IMG/VR virus record: IMGVR_UViG_3300032665_002303
Source: an uncultured virus (IMG/VR IMGVR_UViG_3300032665_002303)
Lineage: Duplodnaviria > Heunggongvirae > Uroviricota > Caudoviricetes
Reading direction: 5' to 3' (one strand)
DNA: 20,000 bases
Program-made: the position numbers and the translations under genes
Shown here: one piece after another, positions 484-19,916 of the stretch
Numbering within the stretch: position 1 is the stretch's first letter
How the letters are laid out: the number at the start of each line of letters is the position of its first letter
Notes under the pieces: model-generated
Told to the model about the DNA's origin: nothing
What the model saw: only the letters and a program-made list of their open reading frames with translations
Database searches by the model: none

Positions 484-511
484 GAACGGAGCGTCGCCAC
501 CGCAGCTAAAT
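484..511 (+). repeat. Boundary site 1 (type A)
   Basis: GAACGGAGCG-TCGCCAC-CGCAGCTAAAT, then N8-AAAAGCTAAGT. Confidence 0.95.
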
Positions 512-569
512 AGATCGACAAAAGCTAAGTACAAAAGATTATATTTGTACTCACACAAACAAAGAGCCA

Positions 570-1232
570 ATGACCACCAGCATACTTAACGACCTACTCC
601 TTCTAAAAAACGAACCCAGAGAGAAGATACAAGAATACCTGCAGTCCATAAACCTACAGATATTCGATCCTATCTTTGAAAAGTACATCCAGAATGACCA
701 GGAGGCAAAGCAAATAGTATTATACATAGTATGTGCCTATAGTGAGGATAGCCCATTAATAATACTCCGCCAAGACAGTAAAGAAGAGAAAGAAGGGATA
801 TGTGAGTATTTGCAGATACCGGAATATCTCAGAGGCAACCTGGTAAACTTCGGAGATCAGATAATCAGAAAGGCCGCGACGCAATATCTCACAAAATTCG
901 CCGGGCCGCTATTTAGATCCTACATGTTCATGAAGATACAGGCTGCAGACTATGAGCTGGATATTACAGACAGGGCGTTCACTATCACAAAGACAGAAAA
1001 AATAGATGGCGGAGAGATAGTGTCAGAAGTATTCGACTCCAAGGAGCATGGAAAGGCCATAGCTGAGTACAACCGTTTATGCATACAGATAAATAAAACA
1101 GAGTTAGCTATAAGGGCCCAGGTAAAAAGAATGGAAGGAATAGAGGAGATTAAAGAGTTTGCAAGAACAGGAAAAGAAACAGGAAAATTAAAAGGAGCAA
1201 GAGTAGGAAATGTAGAGAATGTTATTGGGTAG
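570..1232 (+). CDS. Phage protein, possible terminase small subunit
   Basis: 220 aa helical protein with C-terminal coiled coil and K/G-rich tail. It shares the same duplicated leader as terL. The functional call is from position and context only. Confidence 0.5.
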   Translation: MTTSILNDLLLLKNEPREKIQEYLQSINLQIFDPIFEKYIQNDQEAKQIVLYIVCAYSEDSPLIILRQDSKEEKEGICEYLQIPEYLRGNLVNFGDQIIRKAATQYLTKFAGPLFRSYMFMKIQAADYELDITDRAFTITKTEKIDGGEIVSEVFDSKEHGKAIAEYNRLCIQINKTELAIRAQVKRMEGIEEIKEFARTGKETGKLKGARVGNVENVIG

Positions 1233-1260
1233 CTACTTTTTGCAACCAGCACCACCGCCA

Positions 1261-1287
1261 GATCATCTTCGTTGCGTCGCACTGTTC
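1261..1287 (-). repeat. Boundary site 2 (type B)
   Basis: GAACAGTGCG-ACGCAA-CGAAGATGATC on the minus strand. Confidence 0.9.
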
Positions 1288-1304
1288 AACGCCAGAACAA
1301 GAAA

Positions 1305-1332
1305 AAGGAGGGCGCAACCACCGGTGCTAAAT
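1305..1332 (+). repeat. Degenerate boundary site
   Basis: AAGGAGGGCG-CAACCAC-CGGTGCTAAAT, then N8-TGCAGCTAAC. Confidence 0.6.
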
Positions 1333-1367
1333 CAAGGAACTGCAGCTAACATGCGCCAGAAATAAAA

Positions 1368-1398
1368 TTTGGTGGGTAATAAAAAATGAGTATATTTG
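1368..1398 (+). promoter_or_regulatory. Bacteroidota sigma-A promoter
   Basis: TTTG (1368-1371), 19 bp, TATATTTG (1391-1398). Confidence 0.7.
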
Positions 1399-1437
1399 TT
1401 CAATAGAAATTAGTAGCAATTGCAGTAAATTTTATTT

Positions 1438-1501
1438 TTATGTTACTTAGGTCTTTTAAATTGACCTTAGAATAAGCGAGATTAAGTTCTATTTAGCATA
1501 A
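1438..1501. repeat. Partial third copy of the hairpin core of the duplicated segment
   Basis: TTATGTTACTTAGGTCTTTTA...GTTCTATTTAGCATAA matches 217-279. Confidence 0.75.
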
Positions 1502-1508
1502 AAAAAAC

Positions 1509-1536
1509 ATTTAGTGTCTGTTGCGGTGCTGGAATA
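1509..1536 (-). repeat. Variant boundary site (type C)
   Basis: TATTCCAGCA-CCGCAAC-AGACACTAAAT. 19 bp (1514-1532) are identical to 2074-2092. Confidence 0.7.
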
Positions 1537-1579
1537 GAAACGAAGCCCGATTGATGTTACCAAATCAAAGCAAGACACG

Positions 1580-1768
1580 ATGACGTTTGATTCAAAAATA
1601 ATAGATGCCGCAAAGGAAATAGCCGATCCTGCATGGGAGAAATTAAAAGGGCAGCCCAAGGAAGTAAAGCAACGCTTTTTCTACGAGTTAGGTGTCAGCA
1701 TTATGGATGAATACAAGGACGAATATCCGAAAGAGTGGGAATCTCTGTTAGCTATTGGCTATTTGTAG
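1580..1768 (+). CDS. Hypothetical protein (62 aa)
   Basis: ORF track, A-rich leader, downstream of the promoter at 1368. Confidence 0.65.
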   Translation: MTFDSKIIDAAKEIADPAWEKLKGQPKEVKQRFFYELGVSIMDEYKDEYPKEWESLLAIGYL

Positions 1769-2003
1769 GCGATTTGCGAAGTTCTTTAATAATTTGTTCC
1801 AATGATTCTACTCGTTTGTTGAGTTCTATAATTGGGTTGATGCTGGTGAGTGTATATTGCCTTTTGTCGCAATGTGGGCACATGAGATGTATAACTTCAA
1901 TTTTACTTGCAAATTGAGTGGATTTAAACATATCTAAGGAGTGGGGGAATTTATCTATTTCTTTTCCGCAATCCTTGCATTTATGTTTTAATTGTTGGCT
2001 CAT
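1752..2003 (-). CDS. Zinc-ribbon (CxxC...CxxC) plus coiled-coil protein
   Basis: CKDC and CPHC motifs. Start placed at ATG 2003 (MSQQLK), below a TATATTTG -7 box at 2031-2024. Confidence 0.7.
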   Translation of the reverse strand: MSQQLKHKCKDCGKEIDKFPHSLDMFKSTQFASKIEVIHLMCPHCDKRQYTLTSINPIIELNKRVESLEQIIKELRKSPTNSQ

Positions 2004-2068
2004 AAAATTTGATTTATTTGTTACAAATATAAAGATAGAAATTCTTAGCAATTGCATGTAGGTTTAAC

Positions 2069-2096
2069 AACCTGTGTCTGTTGCGGTGCTGGGATG
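2069..2096 (-). repeat. Variant boundary site (type C)
   Basis: CATCCCAGCA-CCGCAAC-AGACACAGGTT. Confidence 0.65.
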
Positions 2097-2148
2097 AGAT
2101 AAAAGCGAAATCAGGGAACGGGACGTTTGTTCTTTAAATTAATGGGTT

Positions 2149-2277
2149 ATGAAAAATCAGGAGACTATGACTTGTGCGGAAGCGGCACAGAGGTTTGGCT
2201 CGGAATTCGCTAAGGATCTTAGCGGGTATGCCGAACATGATATGATAACGATTGGGTTTATAGAGTGGCACTCATAG
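2149..2277 (+). CDS. Small hypothetical protein (42 aa, MKNQETMTCAEAAQRFGSEF...)
   Basis: Manual translation. Converges on the ORF at 2283. Confidence 0.35.
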   Translation: MKNQETMTCAEAAQRFGSEFAKDLSGYAEHDMITIGFIEWHS

Positions 2278-2282
2278 AGTGC

Positions 2283-2519
2283 TTATTTCTTCATCTCATT
2301 TTTGTCTATCGCCCTCATGATGCTGATGCGTATTTCATTTTCTTCATCCGAGGTGAGCGGGAAAGCGGCTTGTTTTCCTTCAATCCAAAAAGAGAAGTGA
2401 GCAATTTTAGGTATGGTAGTTTCGACTTTAAAGACGATGTTTCCTTTTCCTCCGATTGACTTTCCGTACTTTATAAGTTGGTCTTCTCCTTTTACGTTTA
2501 CGGTGATTATCTTATCCAT
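2283..2519 (-). CDS. Hypothetical protein
   Basis: ORF track. Start placed at ATG 2519 (MDKIIT), below TATATTTG at 2537-2530. Confidence 0.7.
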   Translation of the reverse strand: MDKIITVNVKGEDQLIKYGKSIGGKGNIVFKVETTIPKIAHFSFWIEGKQAAFPLTSDEENEIRISIMRAIDKNEMKK

Positions 2520-2612
2520 TGTTTTTATGCAAATATACGAGTTCAATAGTAGCCGTATCGAACGGCTTTCCTTTTTGGGCTTTGCCCTTGAAGCGGAGCT
2601 AAATCAATCAGA

Positions 2613-2728
2613 CGGATTTGTTCTATAATTTTGTCTTATGTTATCCGAAGGACGTGAATAGCGAGGTCGTAAATTTTCCTACGACCGAAGATATTTAACA
2701 ATAAGATCAATTATAGAACCAACATCCG
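2613..2728. other. Inverted pair of dif-like sites / long hairpin with internal stem-loop
   Basis: TTGTTCTATAA-TTTTGTC-TTATGTTATCC (2618-2646,+) and TGGTTCTATAA-TTGATCT-TATTGTTAAAT (2693-2721,-). Internal stem GGTCGTA...TACGACC. Confidence 0.55.
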
Positions 2729-2875
2729 CTTCGTGCGGTGGCCGTTTGTGCGATTGTTTGTGACCTGATACTAATTGTGCGCTCCGATAACGGAACTCAC
2801 TTACGCTAAGTAGCTCATTCGAGGATTGCAGGAAATACGAGGTGGGAATTTACATGTGATACAAAACATGCACAC

Positions 2876-3118
2876 ATGACAGTTACCGAAGATATTAAGA
2901 TAGAGACATTCTCCGATTCTCCAATAACTACTCCTGAGCAAAAAAAGGCGGCATTGCTTGAATATATAGATATTCAAACGGACAAGATTGACGCAATGGT
3001 GAGGGAATTAAAGGATACCGTAACAAAAGCATTGCTACACCCCGAAAAGGAAATAATTAAAGATTACTTCGCTGGATGGGAAGGGCAAAAGAATTACACT
3101 TATCACGTTAAGGATTAA
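2876..3118 (+). CDS. Hypothetical protein (80 aa)
   Basis: ORF track, CACAC leader. Confidence 0.7.
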   Translation: MTVTEDIKIETFSDSPITTPEQKKAALLEYIDIQTDKIDAMVRELKDTVTKALLHPEKEIIKDYFAGWEGQKNYTYHVKD

Positions 3119-3342
3119 TCGTTTACAACATCTGCCGCATCGATTAATAAATTCCATGATTTTCCGTCAATACTTCTCTCGAAAGGGATTCTAATTCTGC
3201 CTCCGGGCATTAATTTGCCATCCTCTCCAAATTCGGGAGCAGAAGAAACGGTTATGATGGCTGTTAAATCTGATGTGTGCTTTAGCTTAAGCCCTTGAAT
3301 ACCTTCAATTAGTAAGTCAATAGGTATTTTCATTTTTCTCAT
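3115..3342 (-). CDS. Hypothetical protein
   Basis: ORF track. Start placed at ATG 3342 (alternative 3333). Confidence 0.6.
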   Translation of the reverse strand: MRKMKIPIDLLIEGIQGLKLKHTSDLTAIITVSSAPEFGEDGKLMPGGRIRIPFERSIDGKSWNLLIDAADVVND

Positions 3343-3379
3343 AATATTTACGTTTAAGGTTAGCACTACGAATGTAAGT

Positions 3380-3412
3380 AATAGCTCCGAGCAATCGGGG
3401 CTATTTTATTTT
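3380..3412 (+). terminator. Rho-independent terminator-like hairpin
   Basis: AATAGCTCCGA-GCAA-TCGGGGCTATT followed by a T-rich tract. Confidence 0.6.
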
Positions 3413-3514
3413 GCATATATTTGCAATGCAAAACCAATAGAATAATGCAGGCACTCTGCCATGCAAAATAAAAAGATTAAAAATGAGTATCGCCCATATG
3501 AAGAATTGGCAAAC

Positions 3515-3934
3515 TTAGAAAAGCATTTTAGCAATATCCCCACTCAGACTTTTAAAATCAGGGCAGATAAAGGCTTGATAAGAATCAGCAGCACAAAGGA
3601 TGTCCGCAAACTTAGGCAATTCGGTATTTAGTGTTTTTATAGCCCTATCTATGGCGCTGTACGCTATTCTAACATTCAATTCCGTTCTTTGGGCAGATAG
3701 CGCCGAAAATATATTTTCAACCGCAAAGAACCCATATTTAGCATTGTGTATAATGAGTTCAAATTTAGGCTCTACAATAAAATATTCGGTTCCGTCAACC
3801 AAGGCTCTTCCATAATTCAGGAAATAGCTTCCAGCTATTTCTCCTGGCTTAAAGCTAGTTAATTCGACTTCATTTGGCAATCCATTTTTTACATTAATTT
3901 TGAGATGGTCTAACATGATATTTTGGTTTTGCAT
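3515..3934 (-). CDS. Hypothetical protein (~140 aa)
   Basis: ORF track. Start moved to ATG 3934 (alternative 3916) because the longer start overlaps the terminator. Confidence 0.7.
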   Translation of the reverse strand: MQNQNIMLDHLKINVKNGLPNEVELTSFKPGEIAGSYFLNYGRALVDGTEYFIVEPKFELIIHNAKYGFFAVENIFSALSAQRTELNVRIAYSAIDRAIKTLNTELPKFADILCAADSYQAFICPDFKSLSGDIAKMLF

Positions 3935-3948
3935 CCACAATATATAAA

Positions 3949-3981
3949 TAAAAAAGTAAAGCCCCACAATATTGTGGGGCT
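3949..3981 (-). terminator. Perfect 22 bp palindrome / terminator
   Basis: AGCCCCACAATATTGTGGGGCT (3960-3981), followed by a T-rich tract on the minus strand. Confidence 0.65.
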
Positions 3982-4057
3982 GCGACATTTAAATTGCAAA
4001 ACCAAAATGCAGCTATTTTAGGACACTAGCGCAAGCCCAATAGAGACTCCGTGTGTG

Positions 4058-4424
4058 GCGCCGGAGGCTCAAAAGAGCATTTTTTGTAACTATAAATAAG
4101 CGCATATGTTATTTAGGTCTTTTAGATTGATTTTAGAATTTTAGCGAATAGTTCTATTTAACATTGCGTCAAATTATAGTTCAAAAAATTCCATTGGAGG
4201 CCGCATAGCCTGTTGCAAATATAGTACAAATGTTGAAACTGCAAAATAAATTTGCCCGATGCAGGGCGCCGTAGTTGATGATTATTGATGAAGTAAAATC
4301 AAGGAACTGAAGCCCGGATTGGTGGGCCAACAAATTATACTTATTTTTGGATGATAGTAGCGATGTTGTCGAACGGAGCGTCGCCACTGAACCCTAATAG
4401 TAGTACCAAAAGCTAAGTACAAAA
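4058..4424 (+). repeat. ~366 bp direct repeat, copy 2
   Basis: Near-identical to 171-536. Ends immediately at the terL ATG. Confidence 0.95.
4371..4398 (+). repeat. Boundary site 3 (type A)
   Basis: GAACGGAGCG-TCGCCAC-TGAACCCTAAT, then AAAAGCTAAGTAC. Confidence 0.95.
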
Positions 4425-6731
4425 ATGAATTACCAAGAAGGACAAATACTAACCATCCCCATAGGGAAAGAAGATATAGCGGAACATTACTTCCACACCC
4501 CGCCTATTCCGCCAAAGAAGCAAATCCTATTCCACGACAAGAAAAAAGAAGATCAATACTGGACCAGGCAAAAAGACCTGCCCAAGATATTCTACGAATG
4601 GCACGAAGAAAAAACACAAGTAGGCATAGGGGTAGAACTGGATGCCAAGAAAACAGAGTACAGCGACACCGGGGAGCTTGTATCCCTGAGTAAAGTAGAC
4701 ACAGGCATACTATTCGACAAGATGGCCGTAGATGGCAGGGAAGGACTGCAAGAGCGCGAGCACCGAAGGAGAACAGAAGGAGTGTGGTTCATGAATAATG
4801 GAGAGCCCACCTACCTTACCGGCAATCACTATGCAATACTGCAAAACCTGCCCATGCTGGGGTGCTCTAATGACGTAGAGCCCGGCAGCCACTACGGGCA
4901 GTATTACCAATTCCAGCGGGATATGGCCTATTACTTTGAGGTATGTAAGAAAGTGGAATACGCCAGAGGTGGGATATTCATCAAGCCAAAAAAGACCGGC
5001 GCCACCCAGTTTTTCTCATTGGTTGCTCTCAATGAGGCGATGACTAACCGGGAAAAGAATGTCCGCATGATGTCCATTACCGAAACACTGTGCAGGGAGT
5101 CAAACTTCGGGTTTGTAAAATATGCCATGCAGAAAGTGCCGAACATCCTAATGCCCTCCCGTTCAAAGCAGAATGAGGGAGAGGTGGTGTTCGGCCCGCC
5201 AAATGCATCAAGGAGCCCGCTGAAAAAACGCCGGGATGTGAGTTTTGGGTACCTGAACACATGGCTATGCACGGTACCAACAACCCGTACTGCCTTCGAT
5301 ACGTTCACAAATCACCTGGCGCTCATAGATGAGTTCCCCAAAATAAAGGAGAATACCTACCCAGAAGAGTTGTTTCTTGCCACGATGCCTACCGTAATGG
5401 AGGGATTTAAACGCAAAGGAACCATATTCGCCCTATCTTACGTGCCGGAGATCACCGACCGCTCATTCTACGAGGCCCGGCAGCTATACAAGGACAGCAA
5501 ACTAAAAACAAGGAAGCGTGACGAGAATGGCAACCAATACGGAGAAACCAAAAGCAAGCTCATCTGCCATACCTTGACCGTACAGGAGGGAATGTTTAGT
5601 TGCTGTGATAAATACGGAAAACCCATTGAGAAGAAGATATGGGATGAGATACGCCGAGAACTGGACGACGTAAAGCACGATCCGGTAAAACTGCAGGCAA
5701 CAAAAAGGCAGTACCCGGCCAGCGAGGCGGACCCATGGAGCGAAACCAGCAGGGAGGACAGCCTGTTTGATAACCTCCGGCTAGGAGAGAAGGCGCAGGA
5801 ATTAGAGGAACTGCAGTCATTAGGCGCGGCACCATACAAGGACTTCAACCTGGAATATACCGTATTGCCGGTAAAGGACCTCAAAAGTGAGCGATATAAG
5901 TTTGATGGTAATATCCGCATGAAATTTGTCACCGACGAAGAGAAGATGAATGACGCGCCTCACGGAAAATTCAAGTGGTACCACAAAGACTGGACACCTG
6001 ACTGGTTCCTACAACGACATCTGAACAAAACAACAGTAGACACAAAGACTGGACGCAGGATGCCCAACCCTAATGCCCCATTTTTTATATCCATTGACCC
6101 CACCAACTACCGCATAAGGAAAAACACCGGCAAGGGCTCTCTGAACGCCATGCAGGTGTTCTTGCTCCCCAGCGCGGAGTTAGATGCGCAGCAGGGTAAA
6201 AGTGTCAGCAATAGGCGCCTAATGGTTAGCTATCTACACAGGTGCGATAAGCCAAGTGACACCCTTGCGGATATGATCAAGTTGATACTTATGTTCGGGT
6301 GCATGGTCCAGATAGAGTCAAACGTAAGTACATGGGCCACGCAGCTTATAGAAATGGGCTTAGGAAACTTCGTGCTCATGGTAAATAAAGACGGAGCAAT
6401 CGAGCCATGGAAGGACTACGATGCTGGACAGAACTATTTTACCTCCCAGAAATCGCAGATAGACATGTATGTAGCGGCTGGTGCAGAATTCTTAGGCGCC
6501 CCCATGATAGAAGGAGAAGTGGATAACATACAATACCTGGACGACTTAGATGTGGTCCAGCAGTTAATGATGATCAAGAAAGAAAACACCACAGAGTATG
6601 ATGCTGCAGTCGCCTACCTCGAAGGATTAATGGGTATAGATGTATGGCTGGGATGGAAAAGAGCAAACGACAACAAAGGAAGAAAGAATGATGAAGGACT
6701 ACGGCAGTTTGCAATGAACATGCTCCACTAA
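4425..6731 (+). CDS. terL: Phage terminase large subunit
   Basis: 768 aa. GVWFMNNGEPTYLTGNHY N-terminal motif, which I recognise from Bacteroidota phage TerL. Walker A-like KPKKTGAT, Walker B LALIDE, and RNase H-like nuclease motifs ISIDP, VQIESN and EYDAAVA. Confidence 0.88.
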   Translation: MNYQEGQILTIPIGKEDIAEHYFHTPPIPPKKQILFHDKKKEDQYWTRQKDLPKIFYEWHEEKTQVGIGVELDAKKTEYSDTGELVSLSKVDTGILFDKMAVDGREGLQEREHRRRTEGVWFMNNGEPTYLTGNHYAILQNLPMLGCSNDVEPGSHYGQYYQFQRDMAYYFEVCKKVEYARGGIFIKPKKTGATQFFSLVALNEAMTNREKNVRMMSITETLCRESNFGFVKYAMQKVPNILMPSRSKQNEGEVVFGPPNASRSPLKKRRDVSFGYLNTWLCTVPTTRTAFDTFTNHLALIDEFPKIKENTYPEELFLATMPTVMEGFKRKGTIFALSYVPEITDRSFYEARQLYKDSKLKTRKRDENGNQYGETKSKLICHTLTVQEGMFSCCDKYGKPIEKKIWDEIRRELDDVKHDPVKLQATKRQYPASEADPWSETSREDSLFDNLRLGEKAQELEELQSLGAAPYKDFNLEYTVLPVKDLKSERYKFDGNIRMKFVTDEEKMNDAPHGKFKWYHKDWTPDWFLQRHLNKTTVDTKTGRRMPNPNAPFFISIDPTNYRIRKNTGKGSLNAMQVFLLPSAELDAQQGKSVSNRRLMVSYLHRCDKPSDTLADMIKLILMFGCMVQIESNVSTWATQLIEMGLGNFVLMVNKDGAIEPWKDYDAGQNYFTSQKSQIDMYVAAGAEFLGAPMIEGEVDNIQYLDDLDVVQQLMMIKKENTTEYDAAVAYLEGLMGIDVWLGWKRANDNKGRKNDEGLRQFAMNMLH

Positions 6732-6764
6732 AAACAATTTTATTGAGCCAGCTATCTCTCTCCG

Positions 6765-6792
6765 ATGGAGCGTCCGTTGCGACGCTCCATTC
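6765..6792 (-). repeat. Boundary site 4 (type A, self-complementary)
   Basis: GAATGGAGCG-TCGCAAC-GGACGCTCCAT, then N8-GATAGCTGGCT. Confidence 0.9.
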
Positions 6793-6828
6793 ATCTTTCT
6801 GCCCCTGATGAAAATATTTTAAAATAAA

Positions 6829-6859
6829 TTTGGTGGTTAAATAATTAGTGCTACATTTG
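6829..6859 (+). promoter_or_regulatory. Bacteroidota sigma-A promoter
   Basis: TTTG (6829-6832), 19 bp, TACATTTG (6852-6859). Confidence 0.75.
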
Positions 6860-6867
6860 TGATAATT

Positions 6868-7050
6868 ATGGCAGGCGCAAAGAGAAACAACTACCTTAAA
6901 GAAAAGCCAACAGAACCCTTCAGGATGAGGTTTAGCGAGAAGTACGCTAAGAAATTAGTGGACAAAATAAATAAGGTGGCAGAGGATGACGACAGATCAT
7001 TTCCCGGTGTGATAGAAAGGATATTAGTTCAACATTTTAATTTAAAATAA
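6868..7050 (+). CDS. Small DNA-binding protein, ribbon-helix-helix-like
   Basis: Strand-helix-helix pattern FRMRFS...INKVAEDDDRSFPGVIERIL, as in Arc/CopG proteins. ATG at 6868 lies just after the promoter. Confidence 0.6.
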   Translation: MAGAKRNNYLKEKPTEPFRMRFSEKYAKKLVDKINKVAEDDDRSFPGVIERILVQHFNLK

Positions 7051-7334
7051 TGACTGGTAAATTTTGGTTTATATTGACACTTCAGATTGCCGCCGTATTC
7101 TTCGTGGCTATATCAATGTCGTTTATTGGTGATTATTTTCACGGATTCTTTGGTGATTATTTTCACAAAATACCTGAAAAATGTTGGATAGGAGCAGTAT
7201 ATGAAGCAAATGAGCCACATTGGCACTGGGGATATAGGCATGTGCTGTGGTGTTTTATGGGCGTATTCATATTTTTAGTTCAGGTGTTTCGCATTGGAGT
7301 ATTTATATATCGAGAAGCCCAATCAAAGCACTGA
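7050..7334 (+). CDS. Membrane protein (2 predicted TM segments)
   Basis: Hydrophobic N- and C-terminal segments, HWHWGYRH loop, TAATG coupling to the upstream gene. Confidence 0.75.
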   Translation: MTGKFWFILTLQIAAVFFVAISMSFIGDYFHGFFGDYFHKIPEKCWIGAVYEANEPHWHWGYRHVLWCFMGVFIFLVQVFRIGVFIYREAQSKH

Positions 7335-7339
7335 ACGAT

Positions 7340-7366
7340 CAACGGAGCGTCGCAACGATGCTAAAT
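7340..7366 (+). repeat. Boundary site 5 (type A)
   Basis: CAACGGAGCG-TCGCAA-CGATGCTAAAT. Confidence 0.95.
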
Positions 7367-7407
7367 AGTGGCAAAAAACCTGACAAACAAAACCTAAAAA
7401 TAGAGAA

Positions 7408-7893: not shown

Positions 7894-7919
7894 CTTTTAA
7901 GCCAGCGGGCGTCGCTATG

Positions 7920-7946
7920 ATTAAACATCGTTGCGACGCTCCGTTC
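7920..7946 (-). repeat. Boundary site 6 (type A)
   Basis: GAACGGAGCG-TCGCAA-CGATGTTTAAT. Confidence 0.95.
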
Positions 7947-7986
7947 GACTTCATACTTTCAATTTCACACACAAATTAAAATAGGT

Positions 7987-8757
7987 ATGTGCAAAGAGCA
8001 TCCAATATTATTTTCTACACCAATGGTGGAGGCTATTATTGACGGAAGAAAAACAATGACGAGGCGCATAGTTAAGCCAATGAGGTCCCAGAGGTGGCTA
8101 TCGATGGATACGCTATTAAAATCGCCATCGGCCTATATGTGCATTATTGACGGAGATGATTGGGCGCAATTCAGGCACCCATTAGCCGGACAGTTTGCGT
8201 TCGGTGTTCAAAATGAGGAAGATAGCCCCTTAACCTGCATTAAACACCCTTACGGGAATATCGGGGATGTGTTATATGTTCGCGAAACATGGCAGCACAC
8301 GGATAGTCTTGGAGTAAATAGGGAGGATGAAAATTCGGGCTATATCTACAAGGCTAGTGAGAATGGTAGGGAGTGGGAATCCAGCGATGATAATTGGATA
8401 TGGAAGCCTTCTATTTTTCTGCCAAAAGAAGGATCGAGAATATGGATTCAGATATCCGATATAAAGATGGAGCGACTACAAGATATTTCGCAAGAAGATG
8501 CAAGGCTGGAGGGTATTTTACCGGCGCCACATAGGCCGTCAATGCCGTCTTGCCCATTACATAAAGATAAATCAATGCATAGAGATTGCTTCGTGTGTGC
8601 ATTTAAAACGCTATGGAATAAAATAAATGGAAAGTCTGGGAATGGGTGGCTTATAAATCCGTGGGTGTGGGCAATATCTTACAATGTGTTATCTACAACA
8701 GGCAGGCCAAATAGTATTCCTGTTTTTGAACGGAGCGTCGCCACTGAAGCTAAATAG
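7987..8757 (+). CDS. ASCH/PUA-like phage protein
   Basis: Motifs PILFSTPMVEAIIDGRKTMTRR, GDVLYVRETW, WKPSIFLP, ERLQDISQEDARLEG and NPWVW. Confidence 0.85.
   Translation: MCKEHPILFSTPMVEAIIDGRKTMTRRIVKPMRSQRWLSMDTLLKSPSAYMCIIDGDDWAQFRHPLAGQFAFGVQNEEDSPLTCIKHPYGNIGDVLYVRETWQHTDSLGVNREDENSGYIYKASENGREWESSDDNWIWKPSIFLPKEGSRIWIQISDIKMERLQDISQEDARLEGILPAPHRPSMPSCPLHKDKSMHRDCFVCAFKTLWNKINGKSGNGWLINPWVWAISYNVLSTTGRPNSIPVFERSVATEAK
8728..8755 (+). repeat. Boundary site 7 (type A), encodes the C-terminus of the upstream ORF
   Basis: GAACGGAGCG-TCGCCAC-TGAAGCTAAAT, then N8-AAAAGCTAAGT. Confidence 0.95.
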
Positions 8758-8784
8758 TAAGGAAAAAGCTAAGTACCCAAAATT

Positions 8785-9096: not shown

Positions 9097-9099
9097 TAA

Positions 9100-9126
9100 A
9101 TTAAGCCAAGTTGCGACGCTCCGTTC
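9100..9126 (-). repeat. Boundary site 8 (type A)
   Basis: GAACGGAGCG-TCGCAA-CTTGGCTTAAT, then N8-GGCCGCTGGCT. Confidence 0.9.
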
Positions 9127-9150
9127 ATCTTCATACTTTCAATTAAAAAC

Positions 9151-9739: not shown

Positions 9740-9746
9740 TGTCGCT

Positions 9747-9774
9747 GAACGGAGCGTCGCCACTGAAGCCAAAT
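9747..9774 (+). repeat. Boundary site 9 (type A)
   Basis: GAACGGAGCG-TCGCCAC-TGAAGCCAAAT. Confidence 0.95.
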
Positions 9775-10462: not shown

Positions 10463-10490
10463 ATTAGGCAGCCGTTGCGACGCTCCGTTC
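10463..10490 (-). repeat. Boundary site 10 (type A)
   Basis: GAACGGAGCG-TCGCAAC-GGCTGCCTAAT, then N8-CGCCGCTGGCT. Confidence 0.9.
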
Positions 10491-11358: not shown

Positions 11359-11385
11359 CAAGTGTGCGACGCAACGCAGCCGATA
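11359..11385 (+). repeat. Boundary site 11 (type B)
   Basis: CAAGTGTGCG-ACGCAA-CGCAGCCGATA. Confidence 0.9.
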
Positions 11386-11624: not shown

Positions 11625-11647
11625 ATATCCTTTCCTCTTGAAACAAG

Positions 11648-11677
11648 AACGCCCGCTATATGCGGGCGTTTACTTTT
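11648..11677 (+). terminator. Terminator at the convergence of the two gene blocks
   Basis: AACGCCCGC-TATAT-GCGGGCGTT followed by TACTTTT. Confidence 0.75.
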
Positions 11678-11709: not shown

Positions 11710-11736
11710 GAACGGAGCGTCGCAACGATGCCTAAT
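11710..11736 (+). repeat. Boundary site 12 (type A)
   Basis: GAACGGAGCG-TCGCAA-CGATGCCTAAT. Contains the stop codon of ORF 11732-11938. Confidence 0.95.
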
Positions 11737-11938
11737 CAGTGGCCTCCGGCCGGCCCAACGGTTCATCAAAACTAACAGTAATAATACACCCACTATCAGT
11801 AAGAGAGAATATTATCTTACGCAACTCCTTTCTTGTTTCAAAGCGGCTGGTCTTGATAACACTCTCTAGTTTGGCGGCAGAAGGGTTTACTATTGTTATA
11901 TGCCCTCCATTGTATAAATACTTTTTGTTTACAGGCAT
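11732..11938 (-). CDS. Hypothetical protein (68 aa)
   Basis: ORF track. Exactly bracketed by sites 12 and 13. Confidence 0.7.
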   Translation of the reverse strand: MPVNKKYLYNGGHITIVNPSAAKLESVIKTSRFETRKELRKIIFSLTDSGCIITVSFDEPLGRPEATD

Positions 11939-11973: not shown

Positions 11974-12001
11974 ATTTGGCACCTGTGGCGACGCTCCGTT
12001 C
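11974..12001 (-). repeat. Boundary site 13 (type A)
   Basis: GAACGGAGCG-TCGCCAC-AGGTGCCAAAT, then N8-TATGGCTAAGT. Confidence 0.95.
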
Positions 12002-12438: not shown

Positions 12439-12465
12439 ATGAAGCATCGTTGCGACGCTCCGTTG
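12439..12465 (-). repeat. Boundary site 14 (type A)
   Basis: CAACGGAGCG-TCGCAA-CGATGCTTCAT. Flanks shared with site 5. Confidence 0.95.
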
Positions 12466-12847: not shown

Positions 12848-12876
12848 GAACGGTGCCATCGCCACTGCAGCCCTAT
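12848..12876 (+). repeat. Boundary site 15 (variant A)
   Basis: GAACGGTGCCA-TCGCCAC-TGCAGCCCTAT. Contains the stop codon of ORF 12873. Confidence 0.75.
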
Positions 12877-13346
12877 CGAAGCTGGCAGCCTGGACCATAA
12901 AGTTTGTCCCGGTGATTACGTAGAGCAAACCACAAAGAAGAGGTGTATTCTACTTGTGTCATTCTTTCTGTGTAATGATCGTAAAGAGTTTTAGAAAATG
13001 ATTTTGGTTCCAGCACTATGGAAGACAAGGCGGCAGTAGTTGCGTCGCACTCTTGTACGCTTAGTTCTTCTATGAGCTGTTCTACTGTTATAGAGGAGAG
13101 GGAATCATCGTAAGGAGCGAATAGCGTGGCCGATAGCCAATATGTGCCGTCGGATATAATGTATGTATTATAGCAGTGCCCGCATTTGGATGTTGGATGC
13201 TTGGTTGTTATTCCAATGTTTATTTCTGTGATGCCACATCTGCACGGAGCAAGGCGAATGCTATGCAATAGAAATATCTGACCCTTTTTAATTAAGCCGG
13301 CAGAATGGCTCTTTATGCAGATTACCTTCTTTCCTACTTCAAACAT
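12873..13346 (-). CDS. Hypothetical Cys-motif phage protein, reads through site 16
   Basis: ORF track. VGKKVICIK, CRCG and CGHC motifs. Confidence 0.75.
   Translation of the reverse strand: MFEVGKKVICIKSHSAGLIKKGQIFLLHSIRLAPCRCGITEINIGITTKHPTSKCGHCYNTYIISDGTYWLSATLFAPYDDSLSSITVEQLIEELSVQECDATTAALSSIVLEPKSFSKTLYDHYTERMTQVEYTSSLWFALRNHRDKLYGPGCQLR
13028..13055 (-). repeat. Boundary site 16 (type B, intragenic)
   Basis: CAAGAGTGCG-ACGCAAC-TACTGCCGCCT. Confidence 0.85.
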
Positions 13347-13389: not shown

Positions 13390-13416
13390 ATTAGGCATCG
13401 TTGCCACGCTCGCTTC
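13390..13416 (-). repeat. Boundary site 17 (variant)
   Basis: GAAGCGAGCG-TGGCAA-CGATGCCTAAT, then N8-AACAGCTAAGT. Confidence 0.85.
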
Positions 13417-14119: not shown

Positions 14120-14146
14120 GAAGTGTGCGACGCAACGATGCTAAAT
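14120..14146 (+). repeat. Boundary site 18 (type B)
   Basis: GAAGTGTGCG-ACGCAA-CGATGCTAAAT. Confidence 0.95.
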
Positions 14147-14152: not shown

Positions 14153-14494
14153 CTATTTGCCGGCTGCATCAGTTTTTGAAAAGTGATCCAGTAGGTTCGT
14201 CATTTCATCAAAGGAGTCTTGAAGGTTATCGTATTCTTCGTTAGATACGCCCTTTATTTGCAAGTTACCCATAACGCTTAGTGCATTACCTACTATATTC
14301 GGGATAGAAAGGAGACATTGTACAGTACCTTTCCATACTAATCCTCCTGGAAGGGATATAGATATAAGGTCAAGCTCTCTGTCTGTTCCGTTTTCTTCCT
14401 GAGTGGTTACTTCTATTTTGTAACCTTCTCCGGATATGCTGGCTTGTGGGGAGAATTCAAAGTCGTTATTGGTTTCTATTTGTATGGTTCTCAT
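14153..14494 (-). CDS. Hypothetical protein (113 aa)
   Basis: ORF track. Bracketed by sites 18 and 19. Confidence 0.75.
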   Translation of the reverse strand: MRTIQIETNNDFEFSPQASISGEGYKIEVTTQEENGTDRELDLISISLPGGLVWKGTVQCLLSIPNIVGNALSVMGNLQIKGVSNEEYDNLQDSFDEMTNLLDHFSKTDAAGK

Positions 14495-14502: not shown

Positions 14503-14530
14503 TTTTGGTTGCTGAGGCGACGCTCCGTTC
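14503..14530 (-). repeat. Boundary site 19 (type A, degenerate right arm)
   Basis: GAACGGAGCG-TCGCCTC-AGCAACCAAAA. Confidence 0.85.
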
Positions 14531-14822: not shown

Positions 14823-14849
14823 GAATGGAGCGTCGCAACGAAGTTTAAT
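14823..14849 (+). repeat. Boundary site 20 (type A)
   Basis: GAATGGAGCG-TCGCAA-CGAAGTTTAAT. Confidence 0.95.
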
Positions 14850-15191: not shown

Positions 15192-15218
15192 ATTTAGCTT
15201 CGTTGCGTCGCACTCTTC
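15192..15218 (-). repeat. Boundary site 21 (type B)
   Basis: GAAGAGTGCG-ACGCAA-CGAAGCTAAAT. Confidence 0.95.
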
Positions 15219-15566: not shown

Positions 15567-15594
15567 GAACGGAGCGTCGCCACCGCAGCTCAAT
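15567..15594 (+). repeat. Boundary site 22 (type A)
   Basis: GAACGGAGCG-TCGCCAC-CGCAGCTCAAT. Confidence 0.95.
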
Positions 15595-16088: not shown

Positions 16089-16116
16089 ATTTAGCTGCGG
16101 TTGCGTCGCACTCTTG
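16089..16116 (-). repeat. Boundary site 23 (type B)
   Basis: CAAGAGTGCG-ACGCAAC-CGCAGCTAAAT. Confidence 0.95.
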
Positions 16117-17220: not shown

Positions 17221-17247
17221 GAAGTGTGCGACGCAACGAAGTTTAAT
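17221..17247 (+). repeat. Boundary site 24 (type B)
   Basis: GAAGTGTGCG-ACGCAA-CGAAGTTTAAT, then N7-TGCAGCCGGCT. Confidence 0.95.
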
Positions 17248-18308: not shown

Positions 18309-18349
18309 TTCTCCGGTAGTTTATTTTTGGTTCAGAAGTTCAGTTATAA

Positions 18350-18377
18350 ATTAGGGGTTCGTTGCGTCGCACTCTTG
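18350..18377 (-). repeat. Boundary site 25 (type B)
   Basis: CAAGAGTGCG-ACGCAAC-GAACCCCTAAT. Confidence 0.95.
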
Positions 18378-18399
18378 TGCGGTTGGTAATTCTATTCGG

Positions 18400-18600
18400 C
18401 TATTCATAAATTATCTTACCGTCGTACTCTGCGGGGATTACATAGGCATCATAAATATTAACTAATGAGTCGGCAATCTCTCCGGCCTTACCTTTTGGAG
18501 CTAAGAGCGTTTCGGTTATTTCGTGAACGATTGCGCATGGTGTTCCATCGGTCATTTCATCAAATGTGATGTTGCCGAATATTATTAATGTCTTGTTCAT
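18400..18600 (-). CDS. Hypothetical protein (66 aa)
   Basis: ORF track. Confidence 0.7.
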   Translation of the reverse strand: MNKTLIIFGNITFDEMTDGTPCAIVHEITETLLAPKGKAGEIADSLVNIYDAYVIPAEYDGKIIYE

Positions 18601-18634
18601 AATTATAAATTGAGATGTTGAAAATATTAATTAA

Positions 18635-18880
18635 TCAAGGCTTTAAATGAAGCGCTAAAATAACGTTTAAATCTTCTGTATTTCCGCTCCATGTGCGACC
18701 ATCCGAAAAGGATATTTGTATGAGCGGTTGCTCGCGCTCTTTATATGTGTCGCCGCTTCAGGTGTATGCATCCATATGGATATAAATTCCGTTTGCGGTC
18801 ATTAATACAGATCCTTTCTGCTCGTTTTTAAATTGACCGCCCTTTACGCCCTGAGTAGTTACTTTTATTGACTTTGACAT
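18635..18880 (-). pseudogene. 81-codon gene with an internal in-frame TGA at 18758-18760
   Basis: Manual translation: MSKSIKVTTQGVKGGQFKNEQKGSVLMTANGIYIHMDAYT*SGDTYKEREQPLIQISFSDGRTWSGNTEDLNVILALHLKP. Confidence 0.65.
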
Positions 18881-18918
18881 GATTTAATATAATTTTAAGT
18901 GGTTGAAAATATGTTGTT

Positions 18919-18945
18919 GAAGTGTGCGACGCAACGAAGTTTAAT
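18919..18945 (+). repeat. Boundary site 26 (type B)
   Basis: GAAGTGTGCG-ACGCAA-CGAAGTTTAAT, then N7-TGCAGCTAAGT. Confidence 0.95.
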
Positions 18946-18974
18946 AGTAAGTTGCAGCTAAGTAAAAGAAGATT

Positions 18975-19370
18975 TTAAATAGAAAAACATAATTCATATT
19001 CATCAGGAATAACAAGAGAGCATTTAATACTCTTAACCCGCAGCGCACAATTTGCACCGATGGAAGTTATCACCTTTCCTACGAACAGATCCGATGTTAG
19101 TATTTCCTTTACTTGCTCCGTTTCAGAAGTAACCACAACAGGCGCAGCGTACAGCAAGTTAGACAAGCAAACCACGGCCGGAACATAACCCAGCAGGACA
19201 GAAAGAAACACAATAAAGGGTATTAGAGCCTTAGTATTATGTGCCTCGCAAATATCATGCGAATAAATAGCAGATCCATACCGAGCAGAAAGGGAGTAAA
19301 TAACAAACCCCACAAGCCCAGCAATGAGGACAGGAGCAAAGAGAACGGTTAATATTTTGGTGTGTTTCAT
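18975..19370 (-). CDS. Membrane protein (2 predicted TM segments)
   Basis: ORF track. Start placed at ATG 19370 (MKHTKI). Two hydrophobic stretches. Confidence 0.7.
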   Translation of the reverse strand: MKHTKILTVLFAPVLIAGLVGFVIYSLSARYGSAIYSHDICEAHNTKALIPFIVFLSVLLGYVPAVVCLSNLLYAAPVVVTSETEQVKEILTSDLFVGKVITSIGANCALRVKSIKCSLVIPDEYELCFSI

Positions 19371-19392
19371 AAATGCAATGTTTTTGCACCTC

Positions 19393-19422
19393 AAAACCCC
19401 GCAGCTTTGCAGCTATGCGGGG
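19393..19422 (-). terminator. Terminator-like hairpin
   Basis: CCCCGCA...TGCGGGG stem followed by TTTT on the minus strand. Confidence 0.55.
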
Positions 19423-19446
19423 CGAGAGTGCTTGTATATTTTATTA

Positions 19447-19731
19447 TTAATTGCTTTTTATTCCCATTCCTATTAAAATACCTCTTAAATACGTCTCCAT
19501 TTCGCTTGCTTTTTTACGACCTTCTACGTCGCTCATGCCCTTGAAAGGCGCACAATGGCCACCGCTTACAGTGCGAACCCTTACTAAACGGTATCCGCCA
19601 TAGTGCGAAGCGTATTCAGTAGTTAAATACGTTTCCTTTCCCATTTCAATTGCTTGGTTATAGCTTACAGCGTCGTTTGTTTCTGTAGCTATTTCGGATA
19701 CTAATAATGCGATCATTTTTGCAGGTGTCAT
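19447..19731 (-). CDS. Hypothetical phage protein (94 aa)
   Basis: ORF track. YGGYRL...SGG...YLRG motif. Confidence 0.8.
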   Translation of the reverse strand: MTPAKMIALLVSEIATETNDAVSYNQAIEMGKETYLTTEYASHYGGYRLVRVRTVSGGHCAPFKGMSDVEGRKKASEMETYLRGILIGMGIKSN

Positions 19732-19765
19732 AATTTGTAAGTTTAGTTACTGATTGATTAGACCA

Positions 19766-19797
19766 CAAAGATAGTGCGTATATGCGAACCAAACAAA
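19766..19797 (-). promoter_or_regulatory. Bacteroidota promoter with TGCGTATATGCG box (copy 2)
   Basis: TTTG (19797-19794), 20 bp, TATCTTTG (19773-19766). Box at 19775-19786. Confidence 0.7.
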
Positions 19798-19888
19798 CAA
19801 ATGGAAATAGAAATGTTTTCATAATACATATTGCACTAATGGCATGCCGTTTATTATATACCCCCCCCCAATAGAATTACCCCCAGCC

Positions 19889-19916
19889 GAAGAGTGCGAC
19901 GCAACAGACGATGATA
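19889..19916 (+). repeat. Boundary site 27 (type B)
   Basis: GAAGAGTGCG-ACGCAAC-AGACGATGATA. Confidence 0.9.

What the first reader, a model, noticed from the sequence alone, without database searches (positions are those of the whole stretch)
484..19916. Phage genome divided into gene cassettes by at least 27 alternately oriented recombination-site-like repeats (candidate new cassette-shuffling system)
Seen: 27 copies of a GC-rich 27-29 bp motif start at 484+, 1261-, 4371+, 6765-, 7340+, 7920-, 8728+, 9100-, 9747+, 10463-, 11359+, 11710+, 11974-, 12439-, 12848+, 13028-, 13390-, 14120+, 14503-, 14823+, 15192-, 15567+, 16089-, 17221+, 18350-, 18919+ and 19889+. Three degenerate copies lie at 1305, 1509 and 2069. 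All but one sit at gene boundaries and typically delimit modules of 1-3 genes. 22 of 26 neighbouring pairs are in opposite orientation, in both the rightward and the leftward gene block, so orientation is independent of transcription direction. The layout is arm / 6-7 bp spacer / 11 bp arm, and the right arm CGATGCTAAAT matches the XerD arm of dif (TTATGTTAAAT) at 8 of 11 positions. Established: tyrosine recombinase sites have two ~11 bp arms around a 6-8 bp spacer, and Acinetobacter pdif modules are genes bracketed by inversely oriented Xer sites. Inference: this is a pdif- or integron-like modular exchange system in a Bacteroidota phage, acted on by host Xer or a phage recombinase encoded outside the window. 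I know of no description of this motif but cannot search for one.
Basis: partly seen in the sequence, partly recalled or inferred. Interest (0 to 1): 0.92.

Follow-up and report, generated by a model that had tools for sequence, protein, structure and literature searches.

The report
Host-shared intergenic repeat crowding a phage
The repeats are real, but they belong to a roughly 80-base intergenic repeat family found in Chitinophagaceae bacteria and several of their phages, and they look like gene-junction elements where modules get swapped rather than Xer-type recombination sites.

Summary
All 27 copies exist: a 10-mer core gives 27 hits against 1.5 expected, and 22 of 26 neighbours alternate in orientation (p=2.7e-4).

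The Xer/pdif mechanism is not supported.
- The motif has no dyad symmetry, and its core-to-TAAT spacing varies.
- No recombinase was found in 38 window ORFs or in 34 ORFs of related contigs.

The motif is not private to this phage. The 17-mer GAACGGAGCGTCGCMAC sits in a head-core-tail element conserved over about 76 nt. Five Chitinophagaceae-lineage genomes carry 14-72 dispersed copies each. The copies lie in every kind of intergenic context, including inside housekeeping operons. At least four other phage-like contigs carry it densely, again mostly alternating (20 of 28).

Relatives differ in gene modules exactly at these junctions. In one relative, identity runs through the element and then stops.

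Best reading (0.4): a host-lineage REP/BOX-like repeat that phages keep at gene junctions. It serves as portable homology for module exchange, as PeSLs do in T4-like phages.

Its molecular function in the host is unknown. I found no Rfam family and no relevant paper.

The parts
484..500 (+). copy, A core (CCAC), co-directional with gene 570-1232
1271..1287 (-). copy, B core, points at the stop of gene 570-1232
1305..1345 (+). degenerate copy (GGAGGGCGCAAC...GCTAAATCAAGG), head-to-head with 1271-
4371..4387 (+). copy, A core (CCAC), 37 nt before the TerL start
6776..6792 (-). copy, A core; the clearest of the 3 copies flagged as a terminator-like hairpin (6764-6791), after TerL
7340..7356 (+). 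copy, A core (CAAC), co-directional, before gene 7408
7930..7946 (-). copy, A core, after gene 7408-7893; reverse-complement flank has TTG-N20-TACTTTCAA before gene 7987
8728..8744 (+). copy, A core (CCAC); read as the C-terminus ERSVATEAK* of gene 7987-8757, 40 nt before gene 8785
9110..9126 (-). copy, A core; core and head 100% identical to relative L355, where homology then ends
9747..9763 (+). copy, A core (CCAC), before gene 9807
10474..10490 (-). copy, A core, after gene 9807-10445
11359..11375 (+). copy, B core, after the last + strand gene
11710..11726 (+). copy, A core; overlaps the stop of gene 11732-11938 (- strand)
11985..12001 (-). copy, A core (CCAC), co-directional, before gene 11938
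12449..12465 (-). copy, A core, co-directional, before gene 12406
12848..12865 (+). copy with a 1-nt insertion in the core
13039..13055 (-). copy, B core, inside ORF 12873-13346
13400..13416 (-). degenerate A copy (GCGTGGCAAC), before gene 13346
14120..14136 (+). copy, B core, at the stop of gene 14153-14494
14514..14530 (-). copy, A core (CCTC), before gene 14494
14823..14839 (+). copy, A core
15202..15218 (-). copy, B core, before gene 15143
15567..15583 (+). copy, A core (CCAC)
16100..16116 (-). copy, B core, before gene 16052
17221..17237 (+). copy, B core
18361..18377 (-). copy, B core, before gene 18308
18919..18935 (+). copy, B core
19889..19905 (+). copy, B core
171..536 (+). left copy of a 367-bp direct repeat (93.5% identical to 4058-4424), including copy 484+ and host-type -7 boxes
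4058..4424 (+). right copy of the 367-bp direct repeat, directly before TerL
1233..4057 (.). segment with - strand genes that separates the terS-like gene from TerL; absent in relative L001 and different in L358
570..1232 (+). 220-aa gene whose homologue abuts TerL in L001 and L358; called terS-like from position only
4425..6731 (+). large terminase subunit
   Evidence: (phrog_6681, E=1.6e-36)
11647..11671 (.). bidirectional intrinsic terminator between the two gene blocks; not part of the repeat family

Best explanation
The 27 repeats are copies of a modular, non-palindromic intergenic repeat family. Each copy has an A/T-rich head box (..TTGCTnAATAG..), an almost invariant 17-nt core (GAACGGAGCGTCGCMAC), a second TAAT(AG) box, a GCTGG/GCTAAG box and an A-run.

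The family is native to Chitinophagaceae chromosomes. It is amplified more than 100-fold in density in a group of lake and soil phages of that lineage, where one copy fills almost every gap between modules of 1-3 genes.

Shown:
- the family, its host distribution and its presence/absence turnover;
- its density and alternation in phages;
- mosaic breakpoints at copies.

Inferred:
- The copies work as junction elements, in the way PeSL cassettes or lambdoid boundary sequences do. The 40-90 nt of near-identical sequence at every gene boundary gives homologous recombination a place to swap, insert or delete modules between co-infecting phages without cutting genes.
- Alternation persists because replacement by double crossover conserves it, and because adjacent direct copies would delete the genes between them.
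- The invariant core is probably kept by a conserved host factor that binds it, as protein or RNA. That factor is unidentified.
For: The family extends beyond this phage.
- The exact motif plus tail gives 133 stretches in metagenome contigs and 122 in species genomes. Nearly all named records are Chitinophagaceae or Chitinophagales.
- Five genomes of that lineage hold 14, 35, 39, 72 and 14 copies, against 1-3 for the reversed-pattern control.
- All 39 copies of G003 share the full head-core-tail architecture.
- Conservation spans -26 to +50 around the core in 233 distinct copies.

Turnover in hosts.
- The bamA-skp junction is empty in 5 of 5 of these genomes and filled in the 5 other loci I printed.
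- The core ending is lineage-specific: CCAC, CAAC or CAAG.
- A long subfamily exists: 50 of 233 copies carry a GCGACGC arm, 45 of them at -32 to -34; controls give 6 and 2.

Phage amplification.
- The window has 25-27 copies in 20 kb.
- Ga0316224_1000335 has 10 copies in 21.6 kb, G007:C128 has 12 in 18.6 kb, and C371, C376 and OCZT010010595.1 carry more.
- The window and Ga0316224_1000335 share only the repeats, not genes.

Alternation: 40 of 52 neighbour pairs overall (p=6e-5) and 20 of 28 outside the window (p=0.018).

Breakpoints at copies.
- In L001 the terS-like gene overlaps TerL. In the window 3.2 kb lies between them, bounded by copies 1271-/1305+ and 4371+.
- In L358 (TerL 70% nt identity) different modules lie between terS-like and TerL, and between TerL and the g8785 homologue. 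The junction copies there have the opposite orientation.
- In L355, 83% identity rises to 100% over the 44 nt of core plus head of copy 9110-, then the next gene is unrelated.
- A 367-bp direct repeat flanks the terS-like gene plus the insert.

Precedent for this kind of mechanism: PeSLs (abstracts of PMC2839356 and PMC4122927).
Against: - A copy occupies almost every intergenic gap, so any whole-gene indel must be flanked by copies. The breakpoint evidence is therefore weak. Only the L355 junction shows homology ending inside or at an element.
- Homologous exchange does not need alternating orientation, so my account of the alternation is inferred and untested.
- L358 has three copies in a row in the same orientation.
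- Contigs from four lake runs gave no trustworthy rearranged joints.
- The host function, and the factor that keeps the 17-mer invariant, are unknown.
- I saw only 20 kb of this phage. A recombinase or other dedicated enzyme may lie elsewhere in its genome.
Confidence: 0.4

Rival explanations
1. Transcription signal. The element is bound by a host transcription component (an alternative sigma factor, an activator, or an RNA-guided factor of the dCas12f-sigmaE kind). Phages place it before genes as a promoter or activator site.
For: - In co-directional copies the start codon follows the first G of the motif at a narrow distance: 51-75 nt in 16 of the 19 copies I measured by hand. A conserved GCTAAGTA box and an A-run lie in between.
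- The core is a 5'-G followed by 16 nearly invariant bases. That is the shape of a target reported for RNA-guided transcription, with the start site 46 bp from the TAM (PMC13472631, sections read).
- Host copies lie beside housekeeping genes such as rpsA, purA, gcvH, rho and ilvD.
- The core ending changes in concert within each lineage.
Against: - About half of the copies point at the 3' end of a gene: 13 of 27 in the window. In bacteria, 71 of 126 tail-side neighbours are convergent genes.
- Copies occur in convergent gaps (17 of 129 sites) and inside operons (mraY-murD, rpmD-rplO, bamA-skp).
- There is no match to the Bacteroidetes -33/-7 layout (that layout is recalled). TAnnTTTG boxes occur at only a few junctions.
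- A Cas12f/TnpB TNB domain is found in 1 of 5 motif-bearing genomes.
- No copy in G003 looks like a guide rather than a target.
Confidence: 0.2
2. RNA punctuation. The copies are transcribed within long polycistronic RNAs. Neighbouring copies of opposite orientation pair into 20-30 bp duplexes that loop out each module. These duplexes are cut by RNase III or protect the mRNA ends.
For: - Alternation is significant.
- Any inverted pair can form a duplex of about -37 kcal/mol.
- Host-type -7 boxes and intrinsic terminators are few, so most copies should lie inside long transcripts.
- The pattern is the same in both gene blocks.
Against: - Adjacent pairs are no more complementary than non-adjacent ones (-37.6 vs -37.5 kcal/mol, permutation p=0.49).
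- Host copies are mostly solitary and occur in both orientations.
- L358 has three same-orientation copies in a row.
- There is no conserved local structure on either strand.
Confidence: 0.15
3. Selfish mobile repeat. This is a MITE-like element without function that has invaded both host chromosomes and phages.
For: - Presence/absence differs at orthologous loci.
- Copy number ranges from 14 to 72.
- Subfamilies and modular long forms exist.
- All four intergenic configurations occur in roughly background proportions: 49, 36, 17 and 16.
- The tail abuts a stop codon at +49 to +63 in 27 of 71 convergent cases.
Against: - There are no terminal inverted repeats and no evident target duplication.
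- Y1 transposase loci adjoin a copy in 1 of 8 cases, and G003 has 39 copies and no Y1 transposase.
- A density of about 1.3 per kb with non-random orientation, in size-limited phage genomes, argues for selection.
Confidence: 0.15
4. The copies are sites of a site-specific recombinase (Xer/pdif-, integron- or shufflon-like) that moves or inverts gene cassettes.
For: - The geometry matches pdif module arrays and shufflons: alternating sites around modules of 1-3 genes. pdif modules are known to me only from the search listing and abstract starts of PMC6449649 and PMC13141974.
- Module content differs between relatives at the copies.
- The 1.2-4.4 kb segment holds genes on the opposite strand between copies 1271- and 4371+.
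Against: - No dyad symmetry and no fixed central spacer.
- Poor match on the XerC-arm side (3 of 11, counted by hand against a recalled E. coli dif).
- No recombinase in 38 + 34 ORFs.
- 14-72 chromosomal copies, some inside essential operons.
- Genes remain co-oriented in two long blocks.
Confidence: 0.08

Closest known systems
PeSL cassettes of T4-like phages (PMC2839356, PMC4122927; abstracts read)
   Same: Short conserved intergenic sequences repeated at the boundaries of small, variable gene modules in phage genomes. Indels and replacements between relatives fall at them. Exchange is by homologous recombination.
   Different: PeSLs are a sigma-70 promoter plus a terminator stem-loop. Here no promoter is evident, and only 3 of 27 copies overlap a terminator-like hairpin. 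These copies alternate in orientation and are shared with the host chromosome.
REP/BIME elements of enterobacteria and pseudomonads (abstract starts of PMC2817692 and PMC3733652 in the listing; the rest recalled)
   Same: Dispersed intergenic host repeats that also occur inside operons. Copy number varies by lineage. Orientation alternates within clusters.
   Different: REPs are 20-40 nt palindromes tied to RAYT transposases. This element is about 80 nt and non-palindromic in its short form. It shows no RAYT link (1 of 8 loci). Its alternating copies are separated by genes rather than short linkers.
pdif (Xer) modules of Acinetobacter plasmids (PMC6449649, PMC13141974; search listing and abstract starts only)
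   Same: Modules of one to a few genes bracketed by sites of alternating orientation.
   Different: pdif sites are 28-bp XerC-spacer-XerD sites with partial dyad symmetry. This motif lacks that anatomy and occurs tens of times per chromosome.
MITEs such as Neisseria Correia elements (recalled), and MITEs shared by viruses and hosts (bioRxiv 10.1101/2024.01.18.576219; abstract start only)
   Same: Small non-coding repeats close to genes, present or absent at orthologous sites, and shared between hosts and their viruses.
   Different: No terminal inverted repeats or target duplication were seen.
Stoperators of cluster A mycobacteriophages (recalled; no call)
   Same: Tens of copies of an asymmetric motif in the short intergenic gaps of a phage.
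   Different: Stoperators are 13-14 bp, keep one orientation relative to transcription, and are not host repeats.
Targets of dCas12f-sigmaE RNA-guided transcription in Bacteroidetes (PMC13472631; abstract and sections 7, 10, 25, 28 read in part)
   Same: A 5'-G followed by a conserved intergenic sequence of about 16 nt. Copies change in concert within a lineage.
   Different: Those targets number up to seven loci per guide and face the gene they drive. Here there are 14-72 copies in both orientations, and 4 of 5 genomes show no Cas12f-type domain.

Membership tests
Xer/dif (pdif) site | Two ~11-bp arms with partial dyad symmetry | tested here: not met
   Aligned copies show an asymmetric core. 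The left 11 nt share only 2 terminal bases with the reverse complement of the right 11 nt (hand count on copy 7340+).
Xer/dif (pdif) site | Fixed 6-8 bp central region | tested here: not met
   The core-to-TAAT distance varies by 1-2 nt among 120 aligned copies, seen as gap columns in A1.
Xer/dif (pdif) site | Alternating orientation around gene modules | tested here: met
   22 of 26 in the window; 40 of 52 over all phage-like contigs.
Xer/dif (pdif) site | One chromosomal dif site, with extra sites on plasmids | tested here: not met
   14-72 dispersed copies per chromosome.
Integron attC | Imperfect palindrome (R''-L''/L'-R'), all cassettes in one orientation, intI nearby | tested here: not met
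   No consensus pairing. Orientations alternate. No integrase in 38 window ORFs.
REP/BIME | Short GC-rich palindrome | tested here: inconclusive
   The short form has no consensus structure. 50 of 233 copies carry an upstream GCGACGC arm able to pair with the core, but fold z-scores are only -0.5 to -2.1.
REP/BIME | Association with a RAYT (Y1 transposase) flanked by the repeats | tested here: not met
   1 of 8 Y1_Tnp loci has a copy nearby, on one side only. G003 has 39 copies and no Y1_Tnp.
MITE | Terminal inverted repeats and target-site duplication | tested here: not met
   Head and tail are not inverted copies of each other. The AATAG boxes are conserved parts of the element rather than variable duplications, and there is no long-range mutual information.
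PeSL | Strong promoter plus terminator stem-loop | tested here: not met
   Sigma-70-type sites are not enriched (64 vs 56.1 expected). 3 of 20 terminator-like hits overlap copies. TAnnTTTG boxes occur at few junctions.
PeSL | Lies at indel and replacement boundaries between related phages | tested here: met
   Caveat: copies fill nearly all gaps, so this is nearly unavoidable.
Any Rfam RNA family | Match to a covariance model | tested here: not met
   0 matches at E<=1 in the window. 0 at gathering score in 10 bacterial loci.
dCas12f-sigmaE target | dCas12f and guide RNA in the genome, with the target facing the regulated gene | tested here: not met
   TNB domain in 1 of 5 genomes. All 39 G003 copies are ordinary elements. 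More than half of the tails face gene ends. A diverged dCas12f could be missed.

The most novel reading that the evidence does not exclude
The element is the recognition site of a dedicated, still unidentified sequence-specific machine. It could be RNA-guided, or a recombinase of a new type. Chitinophagaceae and their phages would share this machine, and it would move, invert or switch on modules of 1-3 genes. That would make whole phage genomes arrays of exchangeable cassettes, with the host chromosome as part of the same pool.
Probability: 0.1. Interest if true: 0.9.

Novelty: new variant of a known kind. Interest (0 to 1): 0.62.

Why it matters
If these junction elements drive module exchange, they give a concrete, sequence-defined handle on how phages of an abundant freshwater and soil lineage (Chitinophagaceae hosts) build mosaic genomes.

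They would also be a rare case of one repeat family serving both host chromosomes and phages.

The near-invariant 17-mer, kept across genera, implies a conserved binding partner that nobody has named. Finding it could uncover a piece of Bacteroidota gene-expression or DNA-handling biology.

In practice the motif may also link uncultured phage contigs to Chitinophagaceae hosts.

Tried and rejected
- **Whole genome of the window:** none is held. The record behind L143 is not held either.
- **IMG/VR:** the exact 17-mer gives 18 loci with 1-2 core copies each, which is about chance level. None is a dense carrier, and the window's own contig is not there.
- **Nearest IMG/VR relative, L001:** no motif.
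- **Rfam:** nothing.
- **Consensus RNA structure:** none on either strand, and mutual information is only local. Tail folds have mean z -0.4 against -0.04 for control flank. The larger run timed out and printed nothing.
- **RAYT link:** not found.
- **Cas12f/TnpB link:** not found. No guide-like odd copy among the 39 in G003.
- **Coding reading:** the motif frame gives ERSVAT..K* and two ORFs read through it. But 1-nt indels between blocks, and copies in other frames, rule out a conserved peptide.
- **Partner-specific pairing of adjacent copies:** none.
- **Sequencing runs:** 24 lake or freshwater runs hold the stretch. No RNA holder is listed.
- **Contigs of X16, X18, X19 and X21 laid on the window:** four of the seven joints listed (427>7333, 1291>17217, 6801>8726, 7336<>9735) end at or next to motif copies. 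Their sides are only 25-36 nt long, some have extra letters between, and min_likeness was 85. I read them as repeats from other genomes. Logan contigs break at the repeats, so rearrangement could not be tested.
- **Literature:** the 10-mer in either strand gave 36 papers, and none of the 20 listed is relevant. Word searches for Chitinophagaceae phage repeats and Bacteroidetes intergenic repeats found no description of this motif. Supplements were not consulted.
- **Protein comparison on an untrimmed L001 range:** failed because of stop codons. I used tblastx and the ORF list instead.

Full report
**1. The observation**

The 10-mer GCGWCGCMAC, with up to one mismatch, occurs 27 times in the window. 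Dinucleotide-preserving shuffles give 1.50 (largest 7). The remaining site, 12848+, has a one-base insertion in the core.

Two core forms exist:
- A: GAACGGAGCGTCGC[C/A]AC
- B: (C/G)AAG(A/T)GTGCGACGCAAC

Orientation is defined by the conserved flanks. An objective detector finds 25 sites with 20 of 24 alternating.

Copies sit at ORF boundaries, except 13039-. Conservation reaches far beyond 27-29 bp.

Of the three 'degenerate copies', 1305 is one. It lies head-to-head with 1271-. The other two, 1509 and 2069, are a different two-copy repeat.

**2. What the window is**

ORF 4425-6731 is a large terminase (phrog_6681, E=1.6e-36). Its nearest isolates are Cellulophaga and Flavobacterium phages, all 84 records below 60% identity.

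Other hits are YopX and RepL-like domains. No integrase, resolvase or transposase appears in 38 ORFs scanned.

The genes form a rightward block (4425-11341) and a leftward block (11732 to the window end). A strong bidirectional intrinsic terminator lies between them at 11647-11671.

**3. The motif is not private to this phage**

The nearest IMG/VR relative, L001 (TerL 64% identical), lacks the motif. IMG/VR holds only chance-level single copies.

The picture changes in the other collections. Scanning one genome per species hit it at 122. The records are overwhelmingly Chitinophagaceae or Chitinophagales: Ferruginibacter, Flavisolibacter, Segetibacter, Filimonas, Flavihumibacter, Pinibacter and Chitinophaga-labelled MAGs. 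A few oddly labelled MAG contigs also appear.

Five genomes of that lineage hold 14, 35, 39, 72 and 14 copies within two mismatches. The reversed-pattern control gives 1-3. That is roughly 0.002-0.012 copies per kb, against about 1.3 per kb in the window.

**4. Anatomy of the family**

In 233 distinct bacterial copies, conservation runs from about -26 to +50 around the core. The consensus of 120 aligned copies is AATTGCTnAATAG..N..T-GAACGGAGCGTCGCAAC-nnAAGCTTAATAGnAGnAC..AAGCTGG..ACAAAAAAA, with 1-2-nt length variation between the blocks.

Features of the family:
- All 39 copies of one genome show this full architecture.
- The last three core bases are lineage-specific: CCAC, CAAC or CAAG.
- No consensus RNA structure exists on either strand, and mutual information is only local.
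- A long subfamily (50 of 233; 45 of them at -32 to -34; controls 6 and 2) carries an upstream GCGACGC arm that can pair with the core, preceded by a hairpin of variable sequence. Its folds are only weakly better than shuffles.
- Rfam has nothing.
- Searches for the sequence and for descriptive words found no description in print.

**5. Context in bacteria**

Of 129 sites, 12 have the core inside an ORF of 70 aa or more. The flanking-gene configurations are (-,-) 49, (+,+) 36, convergent 17, divergent 16, and 11 incomplete. So there is no preference of the kind expected for promoters or terminators.

Neighbours are housekeeping genes. Several copies lie inside conserved operons:
- bamA-skp, at five or more loci
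- mraY-murD
- rpmD-rplO
- upstream of rpsA, purA, gcvH, rho and ilvD

The tail often abuts a convergent stop codon, at +49 to +63 in 27 of 71 cases.

Occupancy turns over. The bamA-skp gap is short and empty in 5 of 5 of these genomes, yet carries a 125-nt element-bearing insert in five other loci.

No mobilising enzyme emerged:
- Y1 transposase loci adjoin a copy in 1 of 8 cases.
- One genome has 39 copies and no such gene.
- A Cas12f/TnpB domain is present in 1 of 5 genomes.

**6. Other phages**

Several phage-like contigs carry the element densely:

| Contig | Size examined | Copies |
|---|---|---|
| Ga0316224_1000335 (structural-gene block) | 21.6 kb | 10 |
| G007:C128 | 18.6 kb | 12 |
| G007:C371 | 6 kb | 4 |
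| G007:C376 | 4.9 kb | 3 |
| OCZT010010595.1 | 8.8 kb | 4 |
| JGI26470J50227_1000437 | 17.3 kb contig | 8 exact loci |

Ga0316224_1000335 shares only the repeats with the window, not genes. Outside the window 20 of 28 neighbours alternate (p=0.018). Over all contigs the figure is 40 of 52 (p=6e-5). Alternation is therefore a strong tendency, not a rule: C371 has three copies in a row in one orientation.

In phages the orientation classes differ in their flanks:
- **Co-directional copies.** The upstream gene's stop lies in the head (AATAG or GTGATG). A tail of GCTAAGTA plus an A-run runs into the next ATG.
- **Opposite copies.** A GCYGGC tail lies next to the previous gene's stop.

The same conserved gene can have either class beside it in different phages. 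The TerL 3' junction and the g8785 5' junction differ in this way between the window and C371.

**7. Comparative evidence for module exchange**

- **L001.** The homologue of gene 570-1232 overlaps the TerL start. In the window 3.2 kb with opposite-strand genes lies between them, bounded by 1271-/1305+ and 4371+. A 367-bp direct repeat (171-536 = 4058-4424, 93.5%) brackets the segment.
- **C371 (TerL 70% nt identity).** One different gene lies between terS-like and TerL. A single 61-aa gene, flanked by two copies, lies between TerL and the g8785 homologue. The window has four genes and four copies there.
- **G006:C142.** An 83%-identical stretch covering gene 8785-9096 becomes 100% identical over the 44 nt of core plus head of copy 9110-. 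The next gene is then unrelated.

These data fit exchange at the elements. But because a copy fills nearly every gap, only the last case is discriminating.

**8. Tests of mechanism**

*Site-specific recombination.* The motif lacks dyad symmetry and a fixed spacer. No recombinase was found. Chromosomal copies sit in essential operons. The joints in lake-run contigs that end at motif copies have 25-36-nt sides lying in the repeats, so they are not usable.

*Promoter.* Motif-to-ATG distances are narrow in co-directional copies, 51-75 nt in 16 of 19 by my hand count. The 5'-G plus 16-nt shape recalls targets of RNA-guided transcription (PMC13472631). However:
- Half of the copies face gene ends.
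- Host-type -7 boxes occur at few junctions.
- Sigma-70-type sites are not enriched.

*Terminator.* Only 3 of 27 copies overlap a terminator-like hairpin.

*RNA duplexes.* Any inverted pair could form about -37 kcal/mol. Adjacent partners are no better matched than others (p=0.49), and host copies are solitary.

**9. Verdict**

The element is best filed as a new, host-shared, REP/BOX-like intergenic repeat family. A group of Chitinophagaceae phages keeps it at nearly every gene junction.

Its most likely role in the phage is PeSL-like: a junction sequence and portable homology for modular exchange (abstracts of PMC2839356 and PMC4122927). My confidence in this is 0.4.

The cause of the alternation and the factor that holds the 17-mer invariant are open questions. 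They are what make the finding worth following.

Limits of this analysis:
- Only 20 kb of this phage was seen.
- ORF calls in loci are crude (longest-ORF rule).
- Only contigs, not raw reads, were available.

Noticed in passing
window 171-536 and 4058-4424: A 367-bp direct repeat (93.5% identity). It holds a near-palindromic region with host-type -7 boxes (TATATTTG, TAAATTTG) plus one motif copy. It stands before both the terS-like gene and TerL.
   Followed up: partly
window 1509-1530 and 2069-2090: A separate two-copy repeat, GTGTCTGTTGCGGTGCTGG, each copy upstream of a small + strand ORF.
   Followed up: partly
window 7987-8757; L144 12506-12661: Two ORFs read through a co-directional copy and end in ...ERSVATEAK*. 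The PHROG match of the 256-aa protein stops at residue 236, so the tail is an add-on encoded by the repeat.
   Followed up: partly
L356 (G007:C128) 5778-6548 and 7106-8008: A C5 cytosine DNA methylase is split into two ORFs about 560 nt apart. A NUMOD4-domain protein, a motif of homing endonucleases, lies nearby at 4065-4958.
   Followed up: no
L357 (G007:C376) 741-4506: A motif-bearing contig encodes GroEL-like (Cpn60) and Cpn10-containing proteins, possibly phage-borne chaperonins.
   Followed up: no
bacterial loci such as L150, L096, L224: The left arm of the long form (GACCCTTCGCTTCGCTCTGGGTAAACTGCGACGC) recurs at unlinked loci. It looks like a repeat module of its own. Other copies have CCCGAT-N-ATCGGG hairpins at the same place.
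   Followed up: partly
window 2119-2542: Contigs of two lake runs (X18, X21) skip 422 bases here, with 9 other letters in between and 30-nt sides. This may be a variant lacking part of the insert region, and it is not at a motif copy.
   Followed up: no
window 19938-19979: Simple purine-rich repeats (AAGAAAGAAA...) with very high summed contig depth in two runs (411 and 268). This is probably low-complexity cross-matching.
   Followed up: no
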